From NCBI GenBank assembly GCA_039545335.1, contig BCIN01000004.1, positions 1,230,925 through 1,294,924 on the forward strand: a stretch of DNA of 64,000 nucleotides, read 5' to 3'. Positions 3,122 through 52,800 of this stretch are shown piece by piece (the first letter of the stretch is position 1; every line of letters begins with the position of its first letter). A program made the translations under genes and the position numbers. The DNA comes from Kondoa subrosea. Taxonomy: Eukaryota. The notes under the pieces were generated by a model. The model saw only the letters and a list, made by a program, of their open reading frames with translations. It made no database searches and had not been told where the DNA came from.

Positions 3122-4431
3122 ATGTCTTACAACCAAGATTCCTCTGACTACTCGGTTCGTTATTGTGCTAAGCACTGAAAGCGGGGCACATTGCTTATCT
3201 CGTGCGAGCAGAGCAGCGCAGGCAACTATAACGATAATGACAACAGCCGCTCTGGAATGAACACTAGGTGAGTCCTTCCAAGGCAAAGCTAAGTGACAAC
3301 AAACGTATTGATTATGTGATAGTGATTCTTACGGATCTGGAAATGCTGGAAACGACTCTTATTCGTCTGGTGATCGCTCTGGCTTAGGTGGAGACGATTA
3401 TGGTTCATCTCGCTCAGGCAGAGATGCAGGTAAGCATATTTCATATTTCATGTCTCCGACTGAGCTTATGTAATGCACGCGTACAAGGTATGAGCGGTGG
3501 TGCTCTCTCTGGTGGTCAATTTGGCTCGTCCAACTCTGACTCGTATGATAAGTGAGTTGTTCTCCACTCGCTGTTCACAACCTTCAAGCTTAAGCTGTAA
3601 ATCAGCTCCAACTCGAGCTACGGCAATTCACGAGATGGTGGAATGACCAACACTGCTTCTGACTCAACATACGGCTCAGGCAATAACAACACTTCATCTT
3701 ATGGTGATAATAACACTTCATCTTATGGTGATAGCAACACTTCATCTTACGGAGGCAACAATACCTCATCATACGGAAACGACAACACAACCTCCTCTAC
3801 GGGCACCTATGGACAAGGAAACGATTCGACTGGATTGGGTTCCTCTGGCGGAAACGACTACACCAGAAGTTCTGATGTGGGCAATTCTGATTCGACTCGT
3901 CAAGCCTATGGTGCTTCTTCGACTGATCGCGAAACACCTTACGGAGGTGAGTCTATATGCTTCTATTCTGTGCGAGGTGGATTACTGATTGGTCTGTTCG
4001 AAGCTGGGGCTGGATATTCAATGGGCAGAGGTGAAGAACTCGGACAAGATCGCACCACTTCTTCCTACAATGACTCATCAAACACTGGATCTTCCTACAA
4101 TGACTCAAACACTGGATCTTCCTACAACGATTCAAACACTGGATCTTCCTACAATGACTCGAACAATGGAGCATCCAGCTACAATGACTCAAACACTGGA
4201 TCGGGTTACAACGATTCCGATTCTAGTTCTGGCTACAACAATTCAAACTCTGGATCGGGCAAAGCTGGATTCGGTGACAAGCTCAAGGGTACTTTTGAAT
4301 CTCTTCAAGGAAAGGTTAGTAACATTTCATTCTGCGACCTTTTGGCTTTGGTTGATTATCGATGATAGATGAAGAAGGACGATGACATGATTCAAAGAGG
4401 AGAAGCCAGGAAAGCTGGTAACCTCAACTAA
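3122..4431 (+). CDS. Gly/Ser/Asn/Asp-rich hydrophilin (LEA/dehydrin-like) with CsbD-like C-terminus
   Basis: ATG 3122, several short introns, low-complexity SSYG/SSYND repeats, ends GFGDKLKGTFESLQGK|MKKDDDMIQRGEARKAGNLN* (TAA 4429-4431), resembling the CsbD/YjbJ stress motif. Confidence 0.65.
4058..4255 (+). repeat. Coding tandem repeat, ~27-30 nt unit (NTGSSYNDS)
   Basis: About six imperfect copies of aacactggatcttcctacaatgactca. A second SSYG(D/G)NNT repeat lies at ~3685-3790. Confidence 0.85.
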
Positions 4432-19958: not shown

Positions 19959-21969
19959 ATGACTTGGAAGGACGTCGCTCAAGACAAGAAACGACAGCAG
20001 ACAGAAAGCATTCCCCAGGAATGGCGGATCCCTCAAGCTCATTTGGATGCCTGCGGAAACAATGTCATCGAATTCCCTCGCAGTAGTGGTCTTTTGACCG
20101 CGCGAGAATTGGAAATTACTGTGAGTCAATTTGTGGAGAAGGGTATGCAAAGCTGAAGATCTTAGTGCAGGAGACTCAATGCGAGGCACTTATAGACAAA
20201 TTGCAAAGCGGAGACTGGTCTTCACTGGAAGTCACGTCTGCATTCTGTCATCGAGCTGCAATCGCCCAACAACTGGTCAACTGCCTTACTGAAATCGACT
20301 TTGAAGAAGCTTTGAAAACAGCTCGACTACTAGATGAGCAGCTCAAGAAAACTGGAGTGCCATCTGGCCCCCTTCGTACGGCGCTCGTATCCGATTCGCA
20401 TGTATCTGTATTAATCAGGTGTCTCGCAGATGGCCTGCCAGTATCAGTCAAAGATTCTTTCATTGTCAAAGGGATGGATTCTACAGTAGGCTTTATATAT
20501 TGGGCGAAGGCGCCTGTGCAAGACTCGGAAAGCGAGAGTGTGCTGTAAGTTCTGCAAAGATTGCGGGTTTACGATGTTGAGTCAGGGTTTTCGACTACAG
20601 GATCAAGCTACTACGGAGAGCTGGCGCGGTAATCTACGTGAAGACCAATATCCCAGCTTCAATGATGCACATTGAATCGTACAATAATGTTTGGGGCCGA
20701 GTATTAAACCCGCACAATCGTCAGCTTTCGCCTGGTGGATCAACTGGAGGCGGAGGAGCGCTTGTTGCGATGAAAGGATCCCCCTTGGATATTGGATCTG
20801 ATATTGGGTATGCCAGCTTTATCATAGTGGGTTCTCCTTGTCTAATGTGCTTCTTGGCAGCGGATCGTAAGTCAAGCAGAAACAGAGCGCACGGAAGAGA
20901 ACTGATAATACTTTACAGTATCCGCATTCCAGCTGCATTCTGCTCCATTTTCGGCCTGAAACCTTCTCAAGGTCGCTTCCCAACCTATGGCACTCGTTCT
21001 GGTTTAGCTGGTCAGGAAGCAGTTCTCAGCACTAATGGTCCGATGACGAATTCACTCGATTCTCTTACTTCTTATGCAAAAGCAATTGTCAGTATGGAAC
21101 CCTGGAGATACGATAATCGATGTCTTCCTATTCCCTGGAGATCAATTTCTTTACCTAAAGTGTTATGCTTTGCTATACTATATGATGATGGAGTCGTCAA
21201 GCCTTTTCCACCCCTCACTAGGGCATTGAAAGAAGTGGCTGCGAAACTCAAAGCTGCTGGACATCAAGTCGTCGAGTGGGATCCTGAAGATCTCCATGAG
21301 CAAGGTACACGTCTTCTACACAAGCTATTTGAAGCGGATGGCGGTCAAACGATAAGGAGTCATTTCGATGCTTCAGATGAACCTTGGCCTGCTGGTTTAC
21401 GTATTTATGAAGACTTATCAAAAGACCCAAAGAATGAGCTGGTAAGTAATCGACAGATTGGGCTGAGCTTATATCTAATAGTTTCTCGATAGGGAGTATC
21501 GCAGTACTTTAAATTGCAAGCTGAACGATCAGCTTTTGTACAACACTACTACGCAAAGCTGGAAGCATCGGTTGCTCTGAGTGAAGTGAGTCACTCACGT
21601 TTGTCCGTCTGAGGGTGCAATTGATCGCCGCTCTGAAAGACTGATCGGCCAATAGATGCCATCATCTCTCCCTCCTCAGCAATGACTGCCTGTCGACATG
21701 ATACCTATAAGCACTGGGGCTATACAGGCGTCTTCAATGTCCTCGACTTCTCGGCAGTCAGCTTTCCTGTCACGCGCGTCGACAAAGACGTCGATATGGT
21801 AGACAAGGCCTATCAGCCTCGAAGCGAATTAGATCGACAGGTATGGGCAGAGTACGATCCAGAAGTCTATGACGGTGCTCCAGTCGGATTGCAAGTGGTA
21901 TGCAGGCGCTTGGAAGAGGAGAAGGTATTGGCCGTAGCGGAAGTGATCGAAGATGTATGTTCACCATAG
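19959..21969 (+). CDS. Amidase-signature enzyme, fungal acetamidase (AmdS/Amd2)-like
   Basis: QQLVNCLTEI, GLPVSVKD (catalytic K), PGGSTGG, IGSDIG|GS|IRIPAAF, C-terminal GAPVGLQVVCRRLEEEKVL. Confidence 0.95.
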
Positions 21970-22010
21970 GAACACAATGTCATTGAACAGTCTGTCCATC
22001 AACTATTCGA

Positions 22011-22214
22011 TTATTTTTCGTACACAAACGTGTTGATAAGTGTCCCGATTCCCTCGAACCAAACGTGCATGGTTTGCCCATCTTGAATCGCCCTTTGCGG
22101 TTTTCGAGCCCAAAGAATACCAGCAGGTGTGCCCACGAGAATGATGGACCCAGCTTCTAATGTGGAGCCTTGACTCAGCCATTCGATAGTTTTCTAATGT
22201 CAAATATCATGTTA
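22011..22214 (-). pseudogene. Truncated, frameshifted relic of a fumarylacetoacetate-hydrolase (FAH/FAHD2) family gene
   Basis: Minus strand reads NMIFDIRK/(1-nt frameshift in an A-run)/TIEWLSQGSTLEAGSIILVGTPAGILWARKPQRAIQDGQTMHVWFEGIGTLINTFVYEK*, the typical FAH C-terminus (MIF..SQG.TL..G..I.TGTP.G..GIGTL.N). No room upstream for the rest of the gene. Confidence 0.8.
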
Positions 22215-22560
22215 CTGCACCACATGACGAGCGAAATTAATCTGAAGTTGAAAGGGAAATTGAGCAGAAGAAGCGGATCACCGTAAATTCTACAAACAAG
22301 AAGCCAGAAGAGCCTATCGAGAGGTTTGAGAAGGGAGAATCTGAAGAGAGCATTTTTCGACGGCCTGCCAGCGGAGCTCGTTTCCCAGAATCAGTACCAA
22401 TTCCTTTTCGATCGACTTCTTCTGCTATATAGGATCAAACGTAGCATTGTATCGATGTGTACAGTGAAGATCTATCATTGAGCTTTTATACGGAAACCGG
22501 CGCATCGATATGCCTGTATTGCTGCCAGCGCTGGTGACACTTCGCGCTTGTTTATCAACG

Positions 22561-24262
22561 ATGACAGACCCAGCCAAGCTTCATCTGCTGTCCTGCGTCC
22601 AAGCTTTACAATTGATTCGTGAAGATCAGTGAGTTGTTTTGACACTTTCTCCAGAAGCAATGACTCAAGGCAGAGCATCGTAAGACTCAAGGTAGAAGAG
22701 TATGCGCGAGCTCTTCTGCTCAGAATTAAGGAGCGAGACCCTGTTGTACACGCCTGGTGTTATCTGGATGAAGACTTGGTGCTCCAATCTGCAAGAGCAC
22801 TTGATGCAATTCCAAAGGAGCGAAGGAAACCTCTTCATGGCCTGCCTATCGGTATCAAGGATGTCATGCTGACTGCTGGTATGGGTCTTCCACATCACTG
22901 TTCGTCACAAAGAAACTGAACTTGGGATGGAAGACATGCCAACTGTCTACAACTCACCTCTTTACAAGGATGCTAAGCCTGCAATAGACGCTGCGCCTGT
23001 TGAAGCTCTGCGAAGTCAAGGAGCCCTTATCTTCGGAAAGCTAGCTACAACAGAGGTATGCTACGAGTACGACCTGCCAAGTCGAGCTGATGATCTTATA
23101 GTTCGCTGGCGTCTATCAAGGAGGTCCATGTACAAATGGTGATTCTCCTTCATCTTCTTCTGGATCTTTCTGACTTCTCACCCGACAGCGCATAACCCAT
23201 TGCGAACACCAGGCGGTTCTTCAAGCGGTTCAGCTGCTGCAGTTGCGGACTTTCAAATTCCAGTGGTAAGTACTCTGTCCTGTCATCTGCTCCTTAGCTA
23301 AGTCTCGCAGGCCGTAGGAACTCAGACTGTAGGCAGCATTGGCCGACCAGCGTCCTTCAATGGCGTCTTTGGCTTCAAGCCTACTCATAACGCTATATCT
23401 CGTGAAGGAGTAAGCTATCTCCATATTTCAGCACTGTAACTGACTGAATCGATCGCAGCTGAAATTCTACAGCACTACTCTAGACACTTTTGGTATCTTT
23501 ACTCGAACAGCAGAAGATCTCTCACTTTTCTCTTCTACTTTTCGTCTAAATGATGTTGAACCTGTCATCGTACCTGTTAATCTCAAAGGAGCAAAGATCG
23601 CTTTCTTGAAAACTTTCGTCTGGCCTAAAGCAGAACAAGATACTATCAATGCTTTCAACAACGCTAAAACATTACTTGCTGATACTGGCGCATTCATAAC
23701 TGATCTGGAACTTCCATCTGAATTCTCTAAACTTGAAGCATGGCATAAAACAATTCATTCAGGAGAAGGTCGAATTCACTTTCTATCGCAATACTTACTC
23801 AACAAAGAACTGCTTCATCCTGATTTGGTAGCTGTGGTAGAAGATGAACGACCGTCAAAGAGAGAAATCATGGATGCTTTAGATGGAAGTGCTGCCTTGA
23901 GACCGATTTGGGATAAGATTGCAAGTGAATATGATGTTATTGTTACACCTAGCGTAATAGGAGAAGCTCCTCTTGGTCTGCATTCTACTGGATCTGGTGT
24001 AAGCTCAGTGTATCACTCCGATTTACGGAGCTGAACTTTCGACTAGTGTTTCAACCTGATGTGGACGTTATTGTGAGTAACGGCACATCACTACTGTCGT
24101 TCTCATTTCAGAACTAGACATGCACCGACTATCAATATCCCTCACTTCAAAGGCTCGAATAATATGCCCATTGGACTGACGCTCGTTTCAGCTCGGTATA
24201 CTGACTGTCAATTATTAGAGGTCGCAAAAGCCGTAGATCGGGCTTTCGGGTCCTCAGTATAG
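22561..24262 (+). CDS. Amidase-signature enzyme (GatA-like general amidase)
   Basis: PLHGLPIGIKD, GKLATTE|F, RTPGGSSSGSAAAVA, GTQTVGSIGRPASFNG, MPIGLTLV. Confidence 0.93.
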
Positions 24263-39319: not shown

Positions 39320-40219
39320 ATGTCTTCCCTTCTCACCACCTCGTAAGATGCTCCCTCTTTTCAAGAATTTGGACTAACTTATTCGTTGGAATTGGCCAGA
39401 GTTAGCAGGCAAGTGTCCTTTCTGTCTACTTCCGCCTGCCTTGCCTTACATTTGCTAACAGCACTCAAATCAACATCCTTTCTCTAACGAGATTGGCCAT
39501 GTAAGCTTACAATCACGGCTTAAGCAATTCGAGCTAATTCGAAAATGGCAGGGGAACTGCTGGATTCCTGTAAGTTAGGCAACCTGGGCTGTAATCGCTT
39601 AGACTCAAGCACGCGATTCTTTTCAGCGCACCAGGTATGATCTGTCCATGCATAGTATAACACAAGTCTGATGGATCCCGCCTGCAGCTTTCTTAACCCA
39701 GCGATTCTTCGGTTTCTCAAACAGAACCACCGCTGGCTCATCTGCCACTGCTTCAACCACCTCCGTTAAGAGCGGATCATCTGAGGAATTGGTATGATCT
39801 TACGCTATACATGTTGTCGCGAACTTATTGGCGATTTAGACCCTTGCCGTCCGTCTTTTCGCCGTCAGAGATCTCGCTATGGGTCTTTTGCTCCGTGACA
39901 CCAACCCGTTAGTCCTATGCTGCATGTTCTTTGAACTACTCTAAAACCTTTGCAGAATGGTTGTTGAGCGCATTGTTCAAATGACCGCTCTTAACGGTCT
40001 TTTCGATATCGCTGCCTGCGTTTTCGGTTTCGTTGAAGGCAACCTTTCACGCGAAGTTGTATGTCATAGTTCTCCCATTGCTGGCTCTGGCTGAGCTCGA
40101 GAATAGGCTTTGGCTGTCGGTGGATTCGCTTCCGTTTCCTCCCTCTTCTCCTAGTACGTTTATTGCTACTACACTCTGCCTTTGGCTGACTTGCCCTTCT
40201 TAGCTACATCCTCCGTTAG
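39320..40219 (+). CDS. Small multi-pass membrane protein (DUF4267-like)
   Basis: Many tiny exons. Spliced segments LAVRLFAVRDLAMGLLL and LFDIAACVFGF resemble the RDLxxG/D motif of small DUF4267-type membrane proteins. Confidence 0.55.
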
Positions 40220-40404
40220 TCTCGCCTTGTCTGGAAACCCCAAGCCCACTGACATTCTCTGCAGAGCGTTAAGTGCACCTTTGGTTCCCTTTTCGGCTGC
40301 AAATGTTGTAATGAATTGAATCGAATCGAGAAATAGCATATTGATCGCACGTAAACTATTTGAAACTATTTGTCCACTCCAATATTCCTCCTCTTCTTCT
40401 GGCC

Positions 40405-40415
40405 TCATTCACTCT

Positions 40416-40506
<91 letters not shown>

Positions 40507-41305
40507 CCCCCCCCCCCCCCCTCCTTTCTTCCCCTTTTTATGCAAACTCATCACTTCCTCCAAACTCTGCAGCTGCTGATCCTGCAATTCCATGAACCCC
40601 AAGTACTCTTGCTAAAACATATCTGTAAAGGCCTGTCTTCCTGGCTACTGAAGGTAGAATGAAGACTTTCATCACACATAAGCTCTACATCTCGTCTCTA
40701 TTGCATTCTGCTCACCGACAGGTTCTTTGATGTAGTAGAACTCTAGGTAAAGCTTGAGTGTGCCGAGATCCATGCTTAGCAGTACTTGTCCAGTTGTAAT
40801 AAGAGGTAAATCCTGCAAAAAGAAATCAGCTTAAAATCGAAAGGCACGACGAATTGACTTGACTGGAAAGTTTGATGGGAGTACACCGTTTTTGTTCGGT
40901 ACTGGTCTGAGCGGCATGAAGCGATAAGCGCTTTCATTCTTTTGACAAGAAGCCAACATCTGAGCGTTATAACTCTACTCGTGGAACGTCAACGTCTGGC
41001 GTCTTACACATCGAATAGCTTTACCTGAGCTTCTCCTACACTCCGAGACCTCGTTAACCTTAATAATTCGTGCTGCAGAGTAAGCTGACTAAGATTCTCA
41101 ATCAGTCCCGCTTGACTCTAACTGCTCGAGCAGCTTACTCTTCTGCAAGCTTTGACAGGTGTTCCAGTATCTTGGTCTGTTTCTTGGACTCCTCAGTCAA
41201 ATCAAGTAAGACCTGATCTTCTGTCGAGACAGCAATTCCATGCTCGATAGCTGTGCTGTTCCAAGTATCGTGCGAATCTGTAGAAGCGGTTGAAGCTCTA
41301 TCCAT
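40405..41305 (-). CDS. Coiled-coil protein with Mug135-like C-terminal region
   Basis: MDRAST... coiled coil, then PLRPVPNKNGVLPSNFP|DLPLITT...LKLYLEFY...RAY|QEYLG. The last exon runs through the G homopolymer. Family assignment by motif recall. Confidence 0.5.
40417..40521 (+). repeat. Poly-C (poly-G on minus) homopolymer, C87-T-C17
   Basis: Directly visible in the sequence. Confidence 0.95.
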
Positions 41306-41620
41306 TGGATCGATCAATACTATGTAGCAAGTAGAGGACGGCTAGAAGAAGAGAGATGAGTGGAATGAATCGAATCTGACAAAGGGATTCGACTTTCGCG
41401 CAATATAGGCTTGTGTTGTGCCAGCCCATGTCGGGCCTATCGTAGTATGGAAAGAAAGTGAAAAGTGTTGTCGCACGCTCTGCAAGATGCGGAAAAGTCT
41501 TTGACCATTGAGAATAATGGCAATCGCTTTTCGTTCGCAAACAGAGCTATGTCTGGCTTGCAGACTATATGAAACTGAAAGAATAACACATCAAGAGTCC
41601 AAAGGACTAGAATCATATGC

Positions 41621-42450
41621 ATGCAGCCTGCAACAGACTCGAAACATGTCAAAGTTTTGGAGGTGAAATTAAGCAACAGAACACTGCATCTGGCGCAGGA
41701 TGACGTGTTAGGCGATACAGGAGGTACTCTATGGCTCTCAGGACAAGTTGTAAGCAGATCTAGACATTCAAGTGGTTTTGATTCAAGCTGTCATTTCAGT
41801 TATCAGCTTGGTTGAGGTATGCGCAAGCCATACCGGCTTCACCTAGGAAGCGCGCGATAGAGCTAGGCAGTAGGTCGGCTGCCTTCTTCTTCTCCTGCAA
41901 AAGCTGAAGAAGAACAGGTGGAATCGGCTTACTAAGCTTGACCTTACAAGCGCTGGGCTTCGATGTTCTAGCAACTGATTCTCCTATCGTCTTTTCCCTC
42001 TTGGAGAAGAATATCGAACAGAATCGGCTTCTCGGTGGTCCCACATTGCAAGCTGAAATCTTAGACTGGTGCAGCGACGACTCGAGCTGGAGCTGGAATC
42101 GTGTTGATCAAGAAGCAACCGAAAGAGACGATATGCCTTTAGGACCACCATTTGATTTGATCGCAACGACGGACACTGTGTATATTGAAAGTCTTTTCCA
42201 GCCGCTATTGAGAACAATTCAAGCATTGGCTTCTCTCGGTACAAAAGCGCCTCAGATCTTACTTGCACTAGAAGAAAGAGACGAGAAGAGTATAGAGAAT
42301 TTCTGGAGAATAAGCGAGACGATGGGATTTAGCAAGAAAGAGATCAAAAAGGCAAAGTTAGCTAAAGCGGTTGATAAGTTCCTAGGATGGAAAAGAGAAG
42401 ACTGGGATGGAGTAAGAGTATATGAGCTATTCATTGATACCTTCGAGTGA
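41621..42450 (+). CDS. Family-16 (METTL21/EFM-type) SAM-dependent protein methyltransferase
   Basis: GDTGGTLWLSG, AIELGS|GIGL (motif I), VLATD, LDW, FDLIATTDTVY (DxxY). Confidence 0.9.
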
Positions 42451-42537
42451 TTTACCAGGGTATACAAATGCATGTACAAATAAAGTGAAAGACCATAAAA
42501 TGCTGGTAATCATGCGAAGTAACGAAGCATCTCGTTA

Positions 42538-43169
42538 TCAATCAAGGTGTGCCCAATGTCCCGGCTGCATGTTCATCAACACCAGATCACGGACTGTACG
42601 ACAAGCCAAACGACTCACAACCCTCTGCTGACACTTTGGGCAATCTGACCTGAAACCCATTGAGAACTTCTTCTTGCTTGTTGGATTGACAGACGACATG
42701 TCCGATGATCGTGAATCGTAAAGAAGAAGCTGCTGAGACTGCGACTGATCGATCATAGTAATGTCTTGCTGAGCAGGTTGACAGATCTGTTGCTCCTGCT
42801 GCTGACCGAGCTCGAGTGAAGTTCCAATGGGTGAATTGTGATGACTAGCGAGCTGCAGAGCACTCAAGCCATTGAGATCTGCCGTCTGAGGTGAATAAGT
42901 TTGAGGCGACAGAACGAAGTGCGTAGGCTGCCATGAATCAACGGCAGAGAACTGCTGAGTGGACTGGAAGGTCAAGATGGGACGTTTCTGAACAGTTCTT
43001 GAGCTTCTCAGCTCCTCAAACCAGCATGGTTGGGCGATAGGGAACTCACAGCAAGTCGAAATTCATTGATCTCGTCCAGCGAGTCCCTTCTTCGCTTGCT
43101 GCCCTTGCTACCCTGAGAACTGGCTGTTGGCTCCCTCAATTGAAAAGCTGGAGGACCATCAATGTCCAT
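42538..43169 (-). CDS. Small fungal protein with C-terminal MGxRxDCxKC...GHxxH motif, copy A
   Basis: MDIDGPPAF...KRRRDSLDE|KRP...FSMGFRSDCPKCQQRV|PGHWAHLD*. Intact, two introns. Confidence 0.8.
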
Positions 43170-43401
43170 GCTTGCTCTTGCTCTTACTTCATAGTTTGCG
43201 GAAAATCACAGTATTTGTGATTCGCAAAGTGCCGAAGAAGTCTCGACGTCACTCGCGCGCGAAGAAAAGATATGTGACAACAGCAGCCTCTATTCGAATG
43301 CAACGAGAACGTGAAAAAAGCAAATCTACAAGACACAAATTAATAACCCTAAGAAAAAGCAGGCCCAATGAAAGCAGTCAGTCGAATCGAGAAAGATGAG
43401 T

Positions 43402-43850
43402 TTAGAGCTCTTCATCAGTGAAGACTTCTTCTCCTCTCTTTCGTCTGGCCATTCGGTCCTTCTTTGCTTTCCTCGCTTCAGATGAAGTGACTGTGCACGA
43501 TCGAGCATCAAATCAGATCGATGTTCTTCTATCGCACGAGAAAGGAATACTCACGCTTCTTGGCCTTCTTCGTGGCTTCGATCTTGTTGCCCATAGCATC
43601 AAATTTGTCTTCTTCTTCATCTTTGCCCTTGTCAATTCGTGCACCTGTTCCTTGACCTTCGACCCAGTTGTGTCCTGAAGCGACAAGGTGTCCATCTTTC
43701 ATAGCCCAGGTTTCTTGGCAGATGGATTCAGAGAACTCTTGGTTGTGGGTGATGACCAGAACACCTCCTTCGAAGGATTTGAGTGCTTCAATCAGAGCTG
43801 CCAAAGATTCACGGTCCAGGTAATTTGTCGGTTCATCGAGGATGACAACC
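43402..43850 (-). pseudogene. Promoterless duplicate of the eEF3 3' end (part of the penultimate exon, the last intron and the last exon)
   Basis: Encodes [15 protein letters not shown]...[34 protein letters not shown], protein-identical to the main gene's end. No 5' part. Confidence 0.92.
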
Positions 43851-44482
43851 GTGAGGGCGACACCTAATTAGACTCGTCTTTGGCCTTCTTCGAGATGTTT
43901 GCTCCTTCCTTCATGATCTTCTTCCGCACTGAAATGACATCGATACTTGGAAGAGGTGAAGAAGCAGTAGGAGTTTCTTCAACATCATCAAACAATGCTG
44001 AAATAATGCGTTGTCGGATCAGTCTGTCCTAGATGTAAGGTTGCACTGCCGCATGTGAAGATGCTACATGCACCGCGTACGGATCTAGCAAAATGAGGTC
44101 GGAAGCTCTGGTTATGCACATAGGATGCGGTGTACGACGATCTGCAATGCTACTGACGCGATCCGCAGAGCGGTGACGCTTGCCACACTTGGGCTGAGCG
44201 AAGTTCTCCCGAGGTGAGATCAACTTGAAAAAAAAAAGAGAAATTTTTTCTCTTCCAACAACCTCTGTGCTTCCAGCACCCTAGACACATCCAAGCTCAC
44301 ACAGCATACCCTTTAAGAGAGATACTCCTTAGAGGTCAGCTCCTCTCTCGCGGGCTTGTGCCCTGGCCTGTTGCACGTTTCAAACATTTCTCATTCCTTC
44401 CTTTTCTGTCGTCTAGGCTGTTTTTACTAGAGATTGAATATATACACACACAAACAAACTAGATTTTTAGATTTCATACATC

Positions 44483-47400
44483 ATGTGAGTTGCTCTGCTT
44501 GGTTGGGCTGAGAGGCGCCACTTAAATGTGCAATCACCAGGTCTCCTGCACCTAAAGCAAACGTCGCTGCCTCTACTCCAGTCAAGCTCGATCCTTCAGC
44601 TATCAAGGATTCGCATGCAGCCGAAGCAGCAGCTGTAGATGGATCAAAGGATGAAGCCAAGATTGATATCAGCACACTTTTCACTGCCACTGATAAGATG
44701 GCTCGTGAGACTGCCGCTGAAGAACTTGTTAACCTTCTCAAGGTATGTTGCATATACATCCCTTTTTCGTCTCACATACTCATTCAAACGTCAGATCGAA
44801 GGCCCAAACGCATTCACTCGTCTCGGTCTATCAGACGCGATACAGAAGGGTCTCAACGACAAGAAGAACGTCCCAGCTCGTGAAGGTGCTTGCACTCTTA
44901 TTCAAATACTCTGCGAACAAGGTGTTGGCCATGCCGCCGAACCTTTCGTCTTCGAAAAAATCCTGCATCTTCTTGTTTCTGAAACTTTCGCCGATAAAAT
45001 CACTGGTGTCCGCCAAGCGGCTGTTGACGCCGTCCTTGCTTTGGTCAAAGTCATGACCTCATGGGCAGTACCTCTTCTTCTGCCAATCATTCTTGATCAA
45101 GTTCACAACGCCGGCAAATGGCAAGTGAAGATCGGTGGATTGGCAGTTCTTGATGAGCTCATCAAGAGCGCACCTGAACAAATCGCTTCCGCTATGCCCA
45201 ACATTATCCCGGTATTGGCGGATGTCATTCACGACACCAAGACAGATGTGAAGAAGGCTGCCCGTGCTACCCTCACCAACTCAACTGCCTTGATCTCCAA
45301 CAAGGATATTGAGAAGTTCATTCCAGCTCTTGTAAGCATCTCATCTGCATTCGCTGTACTTGACTTCCTTACCACTCTTCGCAGATTCAATGTCTGATCA
45401 AGCCAGAGGAAGAAGTACCAAAAACCATTCAGCTACTCGCTGCAACCACTTTCGTTTCTGAAGTCGACTCTCCTACTCTTGCCCTCATGGCACCTCTTCT
45501 TGCCCGTGGTCTCAATGAGCGTCTTACCGCTACTCGCCGAAAGTTGGCTGTTATCATTGTATGTTGCACTCTTCTGCTCCCGTCGAGTTCTGCTCATGCT
45601 TTCCTCAGGACAACATGACCAAGCTTGTCGACAATGAACACACTGTCCGACCTTTCGTACCTAAACTTCTGCCCGGTCTTATGAAGCTTGAAGACCAAGT
45701 CGCTGACCCTGAAGCCCGTTCAGTCGTCGCCCGCGCTATCAAGACTCTTCGTGAAACCGCAAAGGTCGAAGGTGATGGCAGCAACATGCCAGCTCCCCGT
45801 GTCGAAGACCCAGCAGAGTGCGCTAAGCACCTCATCGCTGCTGTCAAGAAGCAATTCCCTTCCACCGGTCTATCCGAGACCTCTCCACTCGTTATTTATA
45901 TTGCCCAGCTAGCCGCTAACCTATGCAACGCTCGTAACTACGAGCTTTCTGAATGGGAATCAGCTCTCGTTCGCTACGTTTCACTCGGTGTTGCGCAAGA
46001 TGCTTCCAAAGCTCAACCAATTGTCAAAGACACTCTTGAAGCCTGCGCCAAGGAAGTCGGTGAAGCTGTCGAAACCCTTGATGATGAAGAAGAGGGCGAA
46101 GATCTTTGCAACTGCACTTTCTCCCTCGCTTATGGTGCTAAGATCCTTCTCAATACTGCTACTCTTCGATTGAAGCGTGGTCACCGATATGGTCTGTGTG
46201 GTAGAAACGGTTCAGGTCAGTATTATTACTCCGATTGTATAACGCCTTTCTCATATTAATCTTTCAGGCAAATCTACCCTGATGAGAGCCATCCACAATG
46301 GTCAGGTCGAAGGTTTCCCTTCGCCCGACGAAGTCCGAACTTTCTATGTCGAGCACGGTATGTCTTGCTAGCACTGCTCTAAATTCGATGTTCACTCTTG
46401 CTTGTAGATATTGATGGTTCTGAAGCTGAAATTCCTATCGCTACCTGGATTCTTCAGGATGAGCGAATTCAAGCACCAGAATCCGAAGTCCGCGAGACTC
46501 TGGCGAAAGTCGGTTTCTCTGAAGCTAGGCAAGGAGACCCAATCGGTGGTCTGTCCGGTGGATGGAAAATGAAGTTGGCTTTGGCCCGTGCTATGTTGTT
46601 CAAGGCCGATATTCTGCTTTTGGACGAGCCAACTAACGTGAGCAATACTACTTGCGTCCTGTTCTTTCATCTGACAGCCGTTCTAGCATTTGGATGTTCT
46701 CAACGTCGCGTGGTTGATTGACTACCTCAAGTCGTAAGTCTACAACTCAGCTTGATATGAGAGTATTGCTCACGGCGCATTTCAGCCTTACTACCTGCAC
46801 CAGTATCATCGTATCGCACGACTCTGGTTTCCTCAACACTACCGTTACCGATATTCTCCACCTTAACCGCTTCAAGATCAAGAGGTATCGCGGTAACCTC
46901 GAAGCTTTCGTCAAGGCTGTGCCAGAAGCCAAAGCTTACTACGAACTCAACCCTGCTGAAGAATACCAATTCAAGCTTCCTAACCCTCCTCTTCTTGACG
47001 GTGTCAAAACCAAGGAGAAGAGTATCATGAAGATGCGTCACGTCAATTTCCAGTACCCAACGAGCAAAGTTCAACAGCTTTATGACATTACCCTTCAGTC
47101 AGTGTTCACTCTTCCGTAATTCGAGGTGTTCATAATAAGTATCTACAGAGTCTCTCTTTCATCCCGTGTCGCTGTTCTCGGACCTAACGGTTCAGGCAAA
47201 TCTACTCTTGTCAAGCTTTTGGTCGGTGAGACCGAGCCAAACATGGGTGGTGAAGTCTGGAAACATCCTAACTTGGTCATTGGTTACGTCGCCCAGCATG
47301 CTTTCCACCACATCGAGTAAGTCTGCCTTCATTGATAGTTTGAAGTCTAGCTCATTTGTTTCTGCAGTAACCATCTCGATAGCACTCCTCTTGAATACCT

Positions 47401-48410
47401 TCTCCAGCGATACCAGACCGGTGAAGATATCGAGGAATTGAGCAAAGCCAACAGACAGATTTCAGCTGAAGAAGAAAAGATCATGAAGGAAGGAGCCAAC
47501 ATCGTCATTGAAGGCCAGAAGCGAGTTATCGACGAAGTCCTTGCCCGTAAGAAGCTCAAGCAGTCTTACGAATACGAAGTCTCTTTCAAGGCTATGTCTT
47601 CATCTGAAAACAGTAAGCACTTCCTGCTATGCGATTGATATTCGGCTAAAGTCATGGCGTAGTCTGGCTTCCAAGAGACGAGCTGATCAAGCGCGGTTTC
47701 GAAAAGAAGATCATTGCTCTTGACACAAAGGAAGCTCAACGTCTTGGTCTGATGCGACCTTTGGTACGAAAGGAAGTCGAACAGCACTTCAACGACTTCG
47801 GTCTTGAGTCTGAGTTCGTAACGCACAACACCATGCGTGGTCTTTCAGGAGGTCAGAAGGTGAAGGTTGTGTAAGTCGCTATTCATCGATTTCAGCAAGA
47901 TTTCCGACTGATCAATTTTTCTTGTCTTTAGTCTGGGAGCTGCTACATGGCGTCGCCCTCACGTTGTCATTCTCGATGAACCGACAAATTACCTGGACCG
48001 TGAATCTTTGGCAGCTCTGATTGAAGCACTCAAATCCTTCGAAGGAGGTGTTCTGGTCATCACCCACAACCAAGAGTTCTCTGAATCCATCTGCCAAGAA
48101 ACCTGGGCTATGAAAGATGGACACCTTGTCGCTTCAGGACACAACTGGGTCGAAGGTCAAGGAACAGGTGCACGAATTGACAAGGGCAAAGATGAAGAAG
48201 AAGACAAATTTGATGCTATGGGCAACAAGATCGAAGCCACGAAGAAGGCCAAGAAGCGTGAGTATTCCTTTCTCGTGCGATAGAAGAACATCGATCTGAT
48301 TTGATGCTCGATCGTGCACAGTCACTTCATCTGAAGCGAGGAAAGCAAAGAAGGACCGAATGGCCAGAAGAAAGAGAGGAGAAGAAGTCTTCACTGATGA
48401 AGAACTTTAA
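44483..48410 (+). CDS. YEF3: Translation elongation factor eEF3
   Basis: ATG-only first coding exon, HEAT region ([20 protein letters not shown]), [18 protein letters not shown], two ABC cassettes ([34 protein letters not shown]), chromodomain [11 protein letters not shown], basic/acidic tail. Confidence 0.97.
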
Positions 48411-49365
48411 ACTCCTCTTTCTCGATTCGACTGACTGCTTTCATTGGGCTTGCTTTTGTTAGGGTTATTAATTTGTGTCTTGTAGATTTGCTTTTTCCAC
48501 GTTCTCGTTGCATTCGAATAGAGGCTGCTGTTGTCACATATCTTTTCTTCGCGCTCGAGCGACAGCGAGACTTCTTTGGCACTTTGCAAATCACAAATAA
48601 CGTAATTTTCCGCAAACTATGAAGTGAGAGCAAGAGCAAGCATGGACATTGATGGTCCTCCAGCTTTTCGATTGAGGGAGTCGACAGCCAGTCCTCAGAG
48701 TAGCAAGGGCAGCAAGCGAAGAAGGGACTCGCTGGACGAGATCAATGAATTTCGACTTGCTGTGAGTTTCCCATCACCCAAGCATGCTGGTTTGAGGAGC
48801 TGAGAAGCTCAGGATCTGTTCAGAAACGTCCTATCTTGACCTTTCAATCCACTCAGCAATTCTCTTCTGCTAATCCATGGCAGCCTTCGCACTTCGTTCT
48901 GTCGCCTCAAACTTATTCACCTCAAACGGCGGACCTCAATGGTCTGAGTGCTCTGCAGCTCGCTAGTCATCACAATTCTCCTATTGAAACTTCACTCGAG
49001 CTCGGTCAGCAGGAGGAGCAACAGATCTCTCAACCTGTCCAGCAAGACATTACTATGGATGATCAGCCGCAGTCGCAGCAGCTTCTTCTTTACGAGTCGC
49101 TATCATCGAACATGTCGTCTGTTAATCCAACAAGCAAGAAGAAGTTCTCAATGGGTTTCAGGTCAGATTGCCCAAAGTGTCAGCAGAGGGTTGTGAGTCG
49201 TTTGGCTTGTCTTACAGTCCGTGATCTGGTGTTGATGAACATGCAGCCGGGACATTGGGCACATCTTGATTGAGGTCAAGATGCTTCGTTACTTCGCATG
49301 ATCACCAGCATTTTATGGTCTTTCACTTTATTAGTACATGCATTTGTATACCGCGGTAATCACTA
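47951..49365 (+). repeat. Right arm of ~1.4-kb inverted repeat (partner 42446-43860)
   Basis: Contains the eEF3 3' end, the intergenic region and the small CxxC gene with its 3' UTR. Confidence 0.97.
48642..49273 (+). CDS. Small fungal protein with C-terminal MGxRxDCxKC...GHxxH motif, copy B
   Basis: Same exon structure as copy A. Several amino-acid differences in the middle region, identical C-terminal motif. Confidence 0.8.
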
Positions 49366-49838
49366 TCATCTCTCTGAGCATTCAATGGCCTCACGTGCCC
49401 ACATCATGTTCATTTTCTCTTTCTTGCTGTATCCTCTCCTTGCGCGCGTAAGATATCGTTCAAATGCGCAAATCTTGTTAGTCTCTCACAAGAGCCAGTC
49501 TGGATCTGCTTGTCGGAGATGGGCATGATGACTCGCCGGTTGGGGCATTGACAATGTTTTAGCAGCGCAAAGTAGTCACTTTGTGGGTTCAATCATTTTC
49601 TATATCACAAGTTGCGTGGAGATCGCTAAGGCAAGTCCGAGCTGTGTTCTCTACTAGTACTCGATACGACAAGCGTCATTTCACTTGGCAATGCCGACTT
49701 GCCCGCCTTTCATCGCCGATTAAGGTTTCCGGCACAAGAGCGGGAATGAGGTAATGTCAATCTTCGTAATCGACAATTGCGCTTTGATCGAAAATTTTCG
49801 AGTCTTGTTCTCACCAACGACAGCCTCACTACGTAGCT

Positions 49839-52800
49839 ATGCCTCACAATCGTGTTTCCAAGCACGACAATTACACAGATGGCAACCACGGAGGAAGGGA
49901 TTGGCTCGCGGATTCATTCGTTAGTTCCACTTTCGGCTTTAATCAGGGACTTCGCTCATGCTCTATAAACATAGGTTGGACAAGTCATCTACCGTACCTT
50001 CAAGCCCAAATGGTATCCGTAAGCTCTTGCGCTTTCCTTTCACTCGAAATCGGCTAAGTTGAAATCTCAACAAAACAGAGAAGAGCAAGAAGGTTTCGTG
50101 ATACCTGAGCGATACAGAAAGGCTACCGAGAACGAGAAGAATAAACCTCAAAGAACTGAGTCGCACAACTCAGCGGAAACTCTAGTCGAGCAGAACAATG
50201 GACAGAATGATGACGCGCAAAACCGCGATGAAGAACGGAGTTCGGACATCGAAAACCAAGGTCAGCAGAAGAAGAGTAAAGACGGTAAAGAAGAGAAAAA
50301 GGAAGAGAAGAAGCCTGAAGACGATCCCAACGTTGTCACTTGGTATTCTGATCATGAGTAAGCATAAAGTGCTATTATTTTGTTTCATGCTCATCTATTA
50401 CTTCAGCGCGGCGAACCCTCAGAATTGGAGTCTTCTGAAGAAATGTGTAATCAGTTAGTGCTCAATACCTCGCAAAGCCGTGCACTAATGCTCGCGCTTT
50501 AGCTGGTCAACTCTGTCTCTTGACTTTCAGTATCTATAGTACGGCTAATACCCCTTTATCTCGATACCTTTCTTACACATTTTTTCAGTCGGATCTGCCA
50601 TCTACTCGCCTGGTTATGCATCTCTCGAACGAGAATTCGGCATTTCCTCTACTTTGGCAACTCTCGGTCTTACACTTTTCGTCAGTAAGTAAATCCAGTT
50701 CTTTACGATTGGCCTTCACTGATTGTATGATATAGTTGGATATGCCATCGGCCCGTATGTCGCTGCTATGCGTGCAAGGTCGATGAAATGACTAATTTGA
50801 GTGTAGTCTGTTTCTTGCCGCACCTTCTGAAATTCCTCAAGTTGGTCGAAACCCGATTTACATCATTACTCTATTCCTTTTCGTCATCCTCCAGATTCCT
50901 TCCGCATTAGCAACCAACTTTGCTGGTCTTTTGGTCCTTCGTTTCCTTGCTGGTTTCATTGGATCGCCGGTGCTAGCGACAGGTGGTGCTTCTCTTTCTG
51001 ATGTTTTCCCTCCAAAGACAAGACCATACGCGATCGGTATCTGGGGTCTTTCTGCAATTCAAGGACCTGTTCTAGGTTCGTTGCTCTTTAATTAGCTAGT
51101 GAAAATTGCTTATCAATTCATTAGGTCCTTTGCTTGGTGGCTTCGCCATTCAAGCTAAGGGTTGGCGATGGGTGAGCAGTTGAGCATTTCCGCTTTGAAC
51201 GCAACTTAACCGGTTCCTTAGGCTTTCTGGATTCTGCTCTGTAAGCAAAACTGAATAGTTAGTGAAGATCGCGCTAACTCAATTTCAAGGGTTGGACGGC
51301 GCGTGCCTCATCGCTTTGATGTTCACCATGCCTGAAACTTCAAGTGCTAACATCCTGACTCGAAGAGCTCAACGTCTGCGCAAATTGACCGGAAATGACA
51401 AACTTAGAAGTCAAGCTGAAATCGACGGCGCGAAAATGAAGCCAAAGGACATGGTCTACATGTCTTTGGTTAGACCCTTTGTATTGATATTCACAGGCAA
51501 GTCGCTTCCCTTTCAGTAGCAACTCCATTCGCTCATGTTTACGCTTCTTGACTGCCACAGAACCTATTTGTCTTGCTCTGCATCTTTACATGTTCGTATT
51601 CTCCCCTTCCTCATCTGTCTAAAGCTGACCGTTCAAATTAGTGGTCTTGTTTACTCTATTCTATACGCTTTCATTGAAAGTTTCTCTTTGGTGTAAGCTC
51701 AACAGAGCACGTCGCGTTCCCTGTCTCACTTCGTTCTAGCTTCACCGAAATGTATGGGTTCAACCTTGGTAAGCTAATTTTTATTTCTGCGCAAAATCCG
51801 TACTTATTCTACTTGCAGGTGAAAACGGTCTGAGTTATAGTAAATTTCTTGCCATTCCATAGCGGAATGCAAGCTAATCCGTTCTGCAGTGGGACTTTTC
51901 GTTGGTGCAATCTTTGCAGTGCGTACTTTTCCAATGCCTTCTGAGACGGGTCTGACCTTTGTGACCATTTTAGTATGCTGGTTTCTGCATCTACAACTAC
52001 AAAGTCACGATTCCCCAATTCAGAGATGGTGGAGGTGATATTGCTCCTGAAGAACGTCTGCCAATCGCTATTGTTGGATCAATCTTCCTGCCTATCTGTG
52101 TAAGCCCTGTGCCACTCTGCGGTTACATGTATGCTTATTTTTCGAGCTAGCTCTTCTGGTTCGGTATGTCTTCCTTGGCAACTCATCGCTTTCCTTGACT
52201 TACAGACTGTTCTGTAGGCTGGACAGCTAACCCTTCTATCCACTGGATTGTACCTTTGATCGGAACTGCCTTCTTCTCGTAAGTTGGCGTTCTTCGCTAT
52301 AGCCACACAAGGCTGATTCCTTTTGGCTAGACCCGGCGCCTTCTTGCTTTTCCAATCTGTACTTAACTAGTAGGTGTATCTATACGATCTCGTAAGCTCT
52401 GGCTTATTGTTTCCAGTCTTGGCGATGCATACCCTACCGATGCAGCTGCTGTTTGTATGTTATGCCGCCCACACTCTGTTGCTTTTACTGACAAAAGTAT
52501 AGATGCCGGTAACGATTTCGTCAGATCTTGCATGGGTGGTGTATTCCCAATCTTCTCCATTGCCCTTTTCCGCAACCTTGGACATGGAGGTATGTTTTAT
52601 TTTCGTGACCTACAGAGTAGAATCTGACCCTTTGTGTAGTCGCCTGGGGTTCTACTCTACTCGGCTGCCTCACTCTTCTCTTTGTCCCTATCCCAATCGT
52701 GAGCCGACTTGATTCATTGTAGTGCTTTGGCTCATTTGTCATTCTTCAGCTGCTTTACAAGTTTGGTCGCAAGTTGCGCATGCGCAGCAAGAAGTGAGGA

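What the first reader, a model, noticed from the sequence alone, without database searches (positions are those of the whole stretch)
42446..49365. Candidate flip-flop (invertible) eEF3 locus: ~1.4-kb inverted repeats each supply a complete eEF3 C-terminus
Seen: arms 42446-43860 and 47951-49365 are inverted copies enclosing a ~4.1-kb core with the eEF3 promoter and all but the last ~130 codons. Both arms start inside the same eEF3 exon and contain the final intron, the last exon, the 3' UTR and the next gene. A crossover between the arms would invert the core and rebuild a full-length, protein-identical eEF3 on the minus strand. Known: IR-mediated flip-flop inversion with gene fragments in the repeats underlies MAT switching in Ogataea and Komagataella. 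I do not know of one centred on a translation factor. Inference: this is either an orientation-polymorphic locus that swaps which 3' UTR and downstream paralog follow eEF3, or the footprint of an inversion with staggered breaks.
Basis: partly seen in the sequence, partly recalled or inferred. Interest (0 to 1): 0.85.

Follow-up and report, generated by a model that had tools for sequence, protein, structure and literature searches.

The report
Inverted duplication bracketing the eEF3 gene
A fungal translation-factor gene (eEF3) lies between two inverted copies of its own tail plus a small neighbouring gene, a layout that would let the gene flip without breaking, but nothing available shows that it flips.

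Summary
Arms 42447-43864 and 47949-49365 are inverted copies around a 4.1-kb core that holds the eEF3 promoter and the first ~946 of 1078 codons. An in-silico crossover rebuilds an identical eEF3 protein.

The left eEF3 piece is a decaying relic. It has no 5' exons, a frameshift and an Arg-to-Cys change at its inner edge, a ~422-bp internal deletion and a further decayed 64-bp eEF3 remnant. The small downstream gene is intact in both arms (dN/dS 0.28).

A 397-bp tract is identical between the arms while the rest differs by ~8%. That is a signature of ectopic gene conversion.

Re-assembled contigs from the only sample found support all four junctions. Their depths (~1x on the diverged arm parts, ~2x on the shared tract) argue against a join of two haplotypes. 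They cannot resolve the orientation of the core.

No MAT genes, recombinase, silencing context or second orientation were found. The nearest relatives are available only as transcripts.

Best reading: a lineage-specific inverted segmental duplication, possibly an inversion footprint, with gene conversion. It is potentially but rarely invertible and is not a demonstrated switch. It is a new member of a known kind. Interest is about 0.3.

The parts
42447..43864 (-). Left arm of the inverted repeat. On the minus strand it reads eEF3 3' fragment, last intron, last exon, 3'UTR/intergenic region, then the small-gene paralog L.
47949..49365 (+). Right arm of the inverted repeat. It holds the working 3' end of eEF3 from 18 nt into exon 13, the last intron, the last exon, the 3'UTR/intergenic region and the small-gene paralog R.
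47972..48368 (+). 397-bp tract identical to L 43444-43840. It covers eEF3 exon 13, the last intron and the start of the last exon. Inferred gene-conversion tract and the only efficient crossover substrate.
   Evidence: no differences between 47971 and 48369; 0 of 20000 permutations reach a run of 397, the largest permuted run is 209, and the next longest real run is 88. X2 contig 47972-48368 has depth 84.8 against 51.1 for the core.
43444..43840 (-). Left-arm copy of the identical 397-bp tract.
   Evidence: X1 contig 43257-43840 has depth 271 against 142 for the core.
43865..47948 (+). Unique core of 4084 bp: ~620 bp upstream region and promoter of eEF3 plus exons 1-12 and the first 17 nt of exon 13. 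It also holds the relic at its left end.
   Evidence: Logan contig 43811-48001 spans both inner junctions.
44483..48410 (+). eEF3 coding region, 14 exons, 1078 aa. The start codon is split AT|intron 44485-44540|G. Exons: 44483-84, 44541-44742, 44795-45331, 45385-45558, 45609-46215, 46268-46357, 46408-46637, 46687-46733, 46786-47097, 47149-47316, 47368-47612, 47663-47870, 47932-48257, 48322-48410.
   Evidence: Spliced alignment to P0122, corrected. All introns are GT..AG. Pfam EF3 HEAT, 4HB and ABC domains. PDB eEF3A chains match at E 2e-36.
43402..43864 (-). eEF3 pseudogene fragment in the left arm (last ~132 codons, intron and stop). It has no upstream exons. At its inner edge it carries an extra G at 43850 (frameshift) and T at 43862 (CGT to TGT); both are derived relative to three relatives.
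43872..43935 (-). Decayed relic of eEF3 exon 11, homologous to R 47459-47526 (81% identity with 4 indels). About 422 bp of eEF3 that lies between this piece and the arm in the real gene is missing on the left.
   Evidence: blastn E 8e-10. Local alignment score 69 against a maximum of 36 in 200 shuffles. No further extension: score 13 equals the shuffle mean.
48642..49273 (+). Small gene, paralog R, 171 aa after splicing. Exons 48642-48761, 48824-49192, 49247-49273. C-terminal motif FSMGFRSDCPKCQQRVPGHWAHLD.
   Evidence: The second intron is confirmed by the spliced transcript contig L026. Relatives.
42538..43169 (-). Small gene, paralog L. Exons 43169-43050, 42987-42619, 42564-42538. Intact, with 19 aa differences from R.
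   Evidence: dN/dS 0.28; on the L lineage 6 synonymous and 7 nonsynonymous changes; on R 7 and 2.
41938..42450 (+). Last exon of a Methyltransf_16 (lysine methyltransferase) gene, the left flank. Its stop codon (42448-42450) lies inside the last 5-6 nt of arm homology. It is convergent with small gene L, with 87 nt between the two stop codons.
50023..52700 (+). MFS transporter gene, the right flank. The extent is approximate; the Pfam MFS_1 hit is on 50796-51095.

Best explanation
This is a lineage-specific inverted segmental duplication. A block of at least ~1.9 kb exists twice in opposite orientation on either side of the eEF3 promoter and the first ~946 codons. The block holds the 3' part of eEF3, its 3'UTR/intergenic region and a complete small downstream gene.

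The right copy is the working end of eEF3. The eEF3 part of the left copy is a promoter-less, 5'-truncated relic that is decaying: it has a frameshift, an Arg-to-Cys change, a ~422-bp deletion and a remnant with indels. The small gene is kept intact and under purifying selection in both copies, so the retained product of the duplication is a second copy of that small gene together with its upstream region.

Ectopic gene conversion between the arms has made 397 bp of the eEF3 part identical again. That tract makes a crossover possible. A crossover there would invert the 4.1-kb core and rebuild the same eEF3 protein with the other 3'UTR and the other paralog downstream. I take that to be a rare, unregulated by-product (non-allelic homologous recombination) and not a switch.

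Shown here: the anatomy, the relic, selection on the small gene, the statistically exceptional identical tract, the in-silico flip, and the reality of both arms and all four junctions in independent re-assemblies of the reads. Inferred: the origin (an inversion with a staggered break or an inverted local duplication), gene conversion as the cause of the tract, and the rarity of inversion.
For: (1) IR anatomy and gene model.

(2) Relic status of the left eEF3 piece. It has no upstream exons. The extra G at 43850 and the T at 43862 are derived relative to L026, L019 and L045. The 64-nt remnant, 81% identical with indels, is joined 7 nt from the arm, which implies a ~422-bp deletion.

(3) The small gene is intact in both arms: dS 0.17, dN 0.047, dN/dS 0.28, with 19 synonymous and 20 nonsynonymous differences over 125 and 442 sites (the 54-nt second intron was still counted as coding there). 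Polarised with L026, synonymous changes are equal on the two lineages (7 on R, 6 on L) and both copies are constrained.

(4) Conversion tract: 397 identical bp against 8.1% differing columns elsewhere in the arms. 0 of 20000 permutations reach that run length. The tract includes a whole intron, so selection on coding sequence cannot explain it.

(5) The divergence of the remnant (13 of 64) matches synonymous divergence of the small gene (19 of 125, Fisher p 0.41). That is consistent with one old duplication plus a later conversion.

(6) Both arms are real. Contigs cross the outer junctions (40535-42577 and 49234-52000) and both inner junctions (43811-48001). Arm-specific contigs have depth 125-137 against 137-142 for the flanks. 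The shared contig has depth 271 in X1 and 84.8 against 51 in X2.

(7) Nothing nearby suggests a switch. Of the 45 ORFs scanned (37 of the 85 frames of 110 aa or more, 5 shorter variants of such frames and 3 shorter MFS-region frames), the hits are ordinary housekeeping families. There are no other repeats.

(8) The pattern that finds both arms in the window (2 matches) occurs once in each of 58 of 58 relatives' contigs. Nine of those are genomic contigs of 8.5-177 kb with at least 2 kb upstream of eEF3. The doubled tail is therefore not a conserved feature of the group.

(9) Precedent: a 4-kb near-identical IR in S. cerevisiae showed no flip in ~53,800 mitoses and 950 meioses (PMC9731477, section 9). 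A 397-bp tract should flip more rarely still.
Against: (1) Gene conversion between the arms shows that they do recombine. Some such events should resolve as crossovers, so past or polymorphic inversions cannot be excluded.

(2) In the 13 unconverted codons of the eEF3 tail, all 3 of 3 differences between the arms are synonymous (p 0.0076 if both copies were neutral; about 0.04 by my hand calculation if only the left copy is neutral). By outgroup comparison the left tail carries no derived change. This is what one would expect if the left tail has at times served as the coding end. It could also reflect promoter constraint for small gene L, or chance, since n = 3.

(3) The orientation of the core in the assembly is unverified, because no contig bridges the identical tract.

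(4) The 100% identity of the tract could be slightly overstated. The X1 contig 43257-43840 runs through 8 known arm differences, which shows that variant bubbles were popped in that re-assembly.

(5) The nine genomic contigs of relatives are distant (~66-74% nt identity in the eEF3 tail). They say nothing about sister species.
Confidence: 0.65

Rival explanations
1. Spontaneous, recurrent flip/flop polymorphism. Repeated homogenisation of the arms lets the core re-invert on evolutionary timescales, so strains or populations carry either orientation, as at the S. cerevisiae chromosome XIV flip/flop region. Both isomers are viable because the IR holds the eEF3 tail. No regulation is involved.
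For: The identical 397-bp tract inside otherwise ~8% diverged arms shows inter-arm recombination. The in-silico flip gives an identical protein. 3 of 3 tail differences are synonymous and there is no derived change on the left tail. The precedent is described in PMC9731477 (abstract and sections 9-10).
Against: Only a 397-bp patch is homogenised; the rest of the arms and the small-gene paralogs have diverged (dS 0.17). In the yeast case the whole 4-kb IR evolves in concert. No second orientation has been observed and only one sample exists. The tail statistics rest on 3 sites.
Confidence: 0.25
2. Programmed or high-frequency reversible switch. Regulated recombination between the arms alternates which 3'UTR and which small-gene paralog lie downstream of the strongly transcribed eEF3 gene. 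This would change the expression of the two paralogs (19 aa apart) or of eEF3 itself.
For: The architecture is the same as Ogataea FF1 loci, where the IR is part of a housekeeping gene (SLA2) (passages of PMC6692504). The transcript contig L026 joins eEF3 and the small gene in a relative, so the downstream paralog may be co-transcribed or interfered with.
Against: The core holds no cargo other than eEF3. No MAT genes, recombinase or transposase, telomeric or centromere-like sequence were found in 64 kb. The homology usable for exchange is short (397 bp). The left eEF3 piece shows neutral decay at its inner edge. The arrangement is absent from 58 of 58 relatives' contigs.
Confidence: 0.04
3. 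Assembly artefact. The arms are two alleles or a collapsed repeat placed twice, or the core orientation and arm identity were imposed by a short-read assembler.
For: The only runs found are short-read data: a Nextera adaptor appears in loose ends, and contigs break at the arms. Bubble popping is visible in X1. The core orientation is not bridged by any contig.
Against: All four junctions are crossed by contigs rebuilt independently from the reads. Diverged arm contigs have the same depth as the flanks, not half. The shared tract has roughly double depth. No alternative letters or joints were reported. The flanks beyond the arms are unrelated genes, Methyltransf_16 and MFS, which two haplotypes of one locus would not give.
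Confidence: 0.03

Closest known systems
S. cerevisiae chromosome XIV 24-kb flip/flop region (Salzberg et al. 2022, PMC9731477)
   Same: A unique segment bracketed by an IR made of duplicated genes. There is evidence of inter-arm homogenisation. Inversion would be unregulated NAHR and harmless to the genes involved.
   Different: In yeast the IR is 4 kb, almost identical throughout, and conserved across a genus, and both orientations are documented. Here only 397 bp are identical, the rest is ~8% diverged, one arm holds a gene fragment and not only whole genes, the core is a single essential gene, and no second orientation is known.
Flip/flop mating-type switching loci (Ogataea polymorpha FF1, Komagataella phaffii FF2, Ascoidea rubescens; PMC6692504, PMC4238957, PMC5720833)
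   Same: The IR contains part of a housekeeping gene (SLA2 in Ogataea), so that the gene is whole in either orientation. The invertible segment lies between the arms.
   Different: Those loci carry MATa and MATalpha genes at the two ends. One end lies beside a centromere or telomere that silences it, and inversion is induced by starvation. None of these features was found here. This organism is a basidiomycete, not a budding yeast.
Inverted duplications at inversion breakpoints, staggered-break model (Ranz et al. 2007, PMC1885836)
   Same: Inverted duplicates of non-repetitive, genic sequence lie at the two ends of a segment. The size falls within the reported range (up to ~1.9 kb). One copy is degenerating by substitutions and indels.
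   Different: The ancestral single-copy, opposite-orientation state could not be shown because no outgroup genome was available. The segment is very small (4.1 kb). A later gene-conversion tract is superimposed.

Membership tests
Flip/flop mating-type switching locus (Ogataea/Komagataella type) | Inverted repeat pair flanking the invertible segment, built from part of a flanking housekeeping gene | tested here: met
   Arms 42447-43864 and 47949-49365 contain the last ~132 codons of eEF3. The feature is taken from passages of PMC6692504.
Flip/flop mating-type switching locus (Ogataea/Komagataella type) | MAT (a / alpha, or HD / pheromone-receptor) genes at the ends of the invertible segment | tested here: not met
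   The core contains only eEF3. Pfam scans of 45 ORFs across the window (37 of the 85 frames of 110 aa or more, 5 shorter variants of such frames and 3 shorter MFS-region frames) and of the arm ORFs gave no HMG, homeodomain, alpha-box or receptor family. Short or intron-split genes could be missed.
Flip/flop mating-type switching locus (Ogataea/Komagataella type) | One end next to a silencing region (centromere or telomere) | tested here: not met
   No telomere-like or other repeats were found in 64 kb apart from one coding 27-nt array. GC is 42-55% around the locus. The neighbours are housekeeping genes on both sides. Chromatin cannot be read from sequence.
Flip/flop mating-type switching locus (Ogataea/Komagataella type) | Both orientations present, inducible in a clone | not testable with these tools
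   Only two runs of one sample were found, kept as k-mer contigs that cannot bridge 397 identical bp.
Spontaneous IR-mediated inversion polymorphism (S. cerevisiae chr XIV type) | IR arms kept alike by concerted evolution | tested here: inconclusive
   One 397-bp identical tract (0 of 20000 permutations), but the remaining ~1 kb is ~8% diverged and the small-gene paralogs have dS 0.17.
Spontaneous IR-mediated inversion polymorphism (S. cerevisiae chr XIV type) | Both orientations among strains or species | not testable with these tools
   No other strain and no genome of the species or a sister species is held. The closest relative is a transcript contig.
Inversion-breakpoint inverted duplication (staggered breaks) | Inverted duplicates of unique, non-transposon sequence at both ends of the segment, up to ~2 kb, one copy often degenerate | tested here: met
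   The criteria come from passages of PMC1885836.
Inversion-breakpoint inverted duplication (staggered breaks) | An outgroup shows a single copy and the opposite orientation of the segment | not testable with these tools
   The 514 nt at the end of L026, beyond its last match to the window, match neither flank. Records behind the genomic loci are not held.
eEF3 (fungal ABC-F translation elongation factor 3) | N-terminal HEAT repeats, four-helix bundle, two ABC cassettes, basic C-terminal tail; full-length similarity to characterised eEF3 | tested here: met
   Pfam HEAT_EF3_N at 1.7e-42, HEAT_EF3_GNC1 and 4HB. PDB eEF3A chains at E 2e-36. The 1078-aa model is 1054 of 1078 identical to P0123. 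Named eEF3 homologues appear.

The most novel reading that the evidence does not exclude
The locus is a genuine reversible genetic switch in a basidiomycete. Recombination in the homogenised 397-bp tract flips the eEF3 core often enough, or on cue, to alternate which 3'UTR ends the eEF3 mRNA. It would also alternate which of two diverged small-protein paralogs sits directly downstream of one of the most strongly transcribed genes of the cell, with the other paralog sitting beside the eEF3 promoter. That would be a flip/flop switch outside mating type and outside budding yeasts.
Probability: 0.05. Interest if true: 0.75.

Novelty: new member of a known kind. Interest (0 to 1): 0.3.

Why it matters
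If the locus only sits there, it is a clean small example of three known processes in one place: an inverted genic duplication of the kind left by staggered-break inversions, retention of one duplicated gene while the neighbouring gene fragment decays, and patchy gene conversion that keeps part of a pseudogene fragment identical to an essential, highly expressed gene.

It also marks a place where a short-read assembly cannot know the true orientation.

If it does flip, it would extend IR-mediated flip/flop loci to a basidiomycete and to a translation factor. That is cheap to test from existing paired reads or by PCR.

Tried and rejected
**Genome and earlier findings**
- Whole genome of the window: none is held.
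- Earlier findings of the scan: none near the locus and none in relatives.

**Sequencing runs**
- Two rows were listed, from one sample and one study, both kept as Logan contigs. No RNA holder was listed, so expression of left-arm alleles could not be examined.
- Laying the contigs gave no joints and no alternative letters. Nothing bridges the identical tract, so orientation is untested. Bins without cover are not used as evidence.

**The small gene**
- Pfam found nothing for the small protein.
- The word-index search found nothing.
- The Atlas gave only hits under 0.9 to unnamed fungal clusters.
- The PDB profile search gave 0 hits.
- The full HMMER search gave one relative.
- The profile search gave 10 proteins that share only the C-terminal motif. 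Function remains unknown.

**Relatives**
- The metagenome pattern scan gave 58 loci, none from the same species; the best nt identity is 88-89%, in L026.
- tblastn with the small protein, the methyltransferase and MFS pieces against the 58 loci hit only L026, and only with the small protein. The relatives therefore give no flank to polarise the ancestral arrangement.
- Reaching the rest of the long contigs behind the loci was answered 'not held', and I did not pursue it.

**Other checks at the locus**
- Extension of the eEF3 relic beyond 43935: none.
- ORFs in the core's left end: only sub-threshold Pfam hits.
- The bacterial-type promoter/terminator scan is uninformative for a eukaryote.

**Idea rejected**
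- I considered layered conversions of different ages. The remnant's divergence equals synonymous divergence of the small gene, so one duplication plus one conversion suffices.

**Literature**
- The search with 'elongation factor 3', 'inverted repeat', 'inversion', 'gene conversion' and 'fungi' found 121 papers holding at least 4 of the 5 terms. The 10 listed all had 0 occurrences of 'elongation factor 3'. I found no description of such an eEF3 locus, but only that listing was examined.
Full report
**1. The observation**

The repeat finder reports two abutting inverted-repeat pairs, 42452-43357/48454-49359 (906 nt, 93%) and 43355-43849/47963-48457 (495 nt, 99%). They are the only inverted repeats of 80 nt or more in the whole 64-kb window. 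Base-by-base alignment places the arms at L 42447-43864 and R 47949-49365.

**2. What the arms and the core contain**

Pfam and PDB searches identify the plus-strand gene in the core as elongation factor 3. Hits are EF3 HEAT repeats at 1.7e-42, the four-helix bundle, and eEF3A chains at E 2e-36. A spliced alignment to the close relative P0122 gives 14 exons at 44483-48410, all introns GT..AG, and 1078 aa. The model is 1054 of 1078 identical to P0123. The start codon is split by the first intron.

The right arm begins 18 nt into exon 13. It carries the last intron (48258-48321), the last exon, 231 nt of 3'UTR/intergenic DNA and a complete small gene (48642-49273, three exons, 171 aa). About 132 eEF3 codons lie in the arm, and the 4084-bp core holds the upstream region and the rest of the gene.

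The left flank is the last exon of a Methyltransf_16 gene whose stop codon lies in the last 5-6 nt of arm homology. The right flank is an MFS transporter.

The closest named eEF3 homologues over a 209-aa stretch are Microbotryomycetes at 68%. The organism is therefore a basidiomycete, probably of the Pucciniomycotina, without a close named relative in the collections.

**3. The flip on paper**

I exchanged the arms in silico at a point inside their identical tract and read eEF3 from the inverted isomer. The protein is identical. The last intron's splice sites are the same in both arms.

**4. The left eEF3 piece is a decaying relic**

It has no upstream exons. Within 22 nt of its inner edge it carries an extra G (a frameshift) and a CGT-to-TGT change. 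Both are derived relative to three relatives.

Seven bases further in lies a 64-nt remnant (43935-43872). It matches eEF3 exon 11 (47459-47526) at 81% with four indels. The blastn E-value is 8e-10, and the local alignment score is 69 against a maximum of 36 in 200 shuffles. In the real gene, 422 bp separate that piece from the arm. The duplicated block was therefore once at least 1.9 kb long, and the left copy has since lost an internal segment.

No homology extends beyond 43935. No gene is detectable in the rest of the core's left end.

**5. The small gene is kept in both arms**

Both copies are open and have the same splice sites. They differ at 19 residues, with dS 0.17, dN 0.047 and dN/dS 0.28 (the 54-nt second intron was still counted as coding in that call).

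A transcript contig of the closest relative (L026, 88-89% nt identity in the eEF3 tail) carries eEF3 followed by the orthologue of the small gene, with the second intron spliced out. This confirms both the synteny and the gene model.

With L026 as outgroup, synonymous changes are equal on the two lineages (7 on R, 6 on L). Nonsynonymous changes are 2 on R and 7 on L. The copies are therefore equally old, both are constrained, and the left one is constrained more loosely.

The protein has no Pfam family or solved relative. A profile search finds 10 small, otherwise unrelated-looking proteins that share its C-terminal motif.

**6. Evidence that the arms recombine**

Differences between the arms are not evenly spread. 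There are 3 in the first 21 nt at the inner edge, then none for 397 bp (47972-48368, which includes a whole intron), then about 8% out to the outer edge. In 20000 permutations of the differing columns no run reached 397; the maximum was 209. The next longest real run is 88.

The old remnant differs at 13 of 64 aligned bases. That is indistinguishable from synonymous divergence of the small gene (19 of 125, p 0.41). One old duplication followed by a more recent gene-conversion event is enough to explain the pattern.

Identity across an intron in a fragment that is otherwise decaying is not explained by selection on coding sequence.

One caveat applies. One of the two re-assemblies runs through eight known arm differences, so bubble popping occurs in such data and a few hidden differences inside the tract cannot be excluded.

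**7. Is the structure real, and which way round is the core?**

Only two runs of one sample hold the locus, and both are kept as k-mer contigs. Contigs cross both outer junctions (40535-42577, 49234-52000) and both inner junctions (43811-48001).

| Region | Depth, X1 | Depth, X2 |
|---|---|---|
| Arm-specific contigs | 125-137 | not used |
| Flanks | 137-142 | not used |
| Core | 142 | 51 |
| Shared tract | 271 | 84.8 |

No joints or alternative letters were reported. This pattern is consistent with two copies of the shared tract, although contig word depth is not a strict copy-number measure. It argues against two haplotypes stitched together. It cannot show the orientation of the core, because nothing bridges 397 identical bases. 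The orientation in the assembly, and any mixture of orientations, remain untested.

**8. Is it a switch?**

The known flip/flop systems share the architecture. In Ogataea the IR is part of SLA2 (passages of PMC6692504). However, they carry MAT genes at the two ends, have a silencing centromere or telomere beside one end, and are induced by starvation (search listings of PMC4238957 and PMC5720833).

Here the invertible core holds only eEF3. Pfam scans of 45 ORFs across the window found housekeeping families only: GNAT, proteasomal ATPase, amidase, inositol-phosphatase-like, Ndc1, glutaminase, Bap31, a DEAD helicase and LYR. There are no other repeats.

A degenerate pattern for the eEF3 C-terminus finds both arms in the window. 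It finds exactly one site in each of 58 of 58 relatives' contigs, and no contig appears twice. Nine of these are genomic contigs of 8.5-177 kb that reach at least 2 kb upstream of eEF3, by my arithmetic on the coordinates. These relatives are distant, so this shows only that the doubled tail is not an old, conserved feature.

The better analogue is the unregulated flip/flop region of S. cerevisiae chromosome XIV. There a homogenised 4-kb IR causes recurrent re-inversion over evolutionary time, yet no change was seen in ~53,800 mitoses and 950 meioses (PMC9731477, abstract and sections 9-10). With only 397 identical bp, flips here should be rarer still.

**9. Hints in favour of past use of the left tail**

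In the 13 tail codons outside the converted tract, all 3 differences are synonymous. The p-value is 0.0076 if both copies were neutral. It is about 0.04 by my own hand calculation if only the left copy is neutral.

Comparison with L026, L019 and L045 suggests that all three changes arose on the right copy, while the left tail kept the ancestral state. This would fit a left tail that has sometimes been the coding end of eEF3. It would also fit constraint as the upstream region of small gene L, or chance. Three sites cannot carry more weight than that.

**10. Origin**

Two routes fit. The first is an inversion with one staggered break, which leaves inverted duplicates of unique sequence up to ~1.9 kb, often with one degenerating copy (passages of PMC1885836). 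The second is a local inverted duplication of the small gene with its upstream region.

The arm homology runs 5-6 nt into the end of the methyltransferase reading frame. This weakly suggests that the left position of the block is the ancestral one, as the inversion model predicts. No outgroup flank could be recovered to test this.

**11. Verdict**

The most likely reading (0.65) is a lineage-specific inverted segmental duplication or inversion footprint. It has a retained gene pair, a decaying eEF3 fragment and a gene-conversion patch. It is potentially but rarely invertible.

Recurrent spontaneous flipping (0.25) cannot be excluded and is cheap to test. A programmed switch is unlikely (about 0.04-0.05). 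The locus is a new member of a known kind, of modest interest.

Noticed in passing
window 44483-44541: The eEF3 start codon is split by the first intron: AT at 44483-84, a GTGAGT...CAG intron at 44485-44540, then G at 44541. The N-terminus then matches relatives (MSPAPK...).
   Followed up: partly
window 48642-49273 and 42538-43169; L026 519-1089: The duplicated small gene encodes a ~171-aa, mostly low-complexity protein. It ends in a conserved motif, F-S/T-M-G-F/Y/W-R-x-D-C-x-K/Q-C-x-x-R/K-V-P-G-H-x-x-H, shared with 10 small proteins in the collections. It has no Pfam family and no solved relative. The CxxC...PGHxxH pattern looks like a small metal-binding tail (my inference).
   Followed up: partly
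window 41938-42450: The gene next to eEF3 is a Methyltransf_16 lysine methyltransferase. From recall, this family includes enzymes that methylate translation elongation factors. Whether this one acts on eEF3 is unknown. Its stop codon sits at the very edge of the left arm, 87 nt from the stop of the convergent small gene.
   Followed up: no
L026 (4693-nt metatranscriptome contig), positions 1-3367 held: In the closest relative, one transcript contig carries spliced eEF3 followed by the small gene. The small gene's first intron is retained and its second is removed. This suggests read-through or overlapping transcripts between eEF3 and its downstream neighbour.
   Followed up: partly
window 4060-4254: Tandem array of 27-30-nt units (5 overlapping 84-nt copies) inside a long ORF (3601-4362, +). 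It encodes a Ser/Asn/Asp/Tyr-rich repeat. There is no Pfam match.
   Followed up: no
window 20087-24031: Amidase-family (PF01425) matches fall on three frames in this stretch: 20087-20545 and 20581-21489 look like exons of one gene, and 23444-24031, about 2 kb further on, may be a second, tandem amidase paralogue.
   Followed up: no
window 40405-40534: read laying skipped a 130-nt repeat here, and the region 40000-40500 has unusual composition (GC 0.55, GC skew -0.42). It is probably a low-complexity or simple-repeat stretch upstream of the methyltransferase gene.
   Followed up: no
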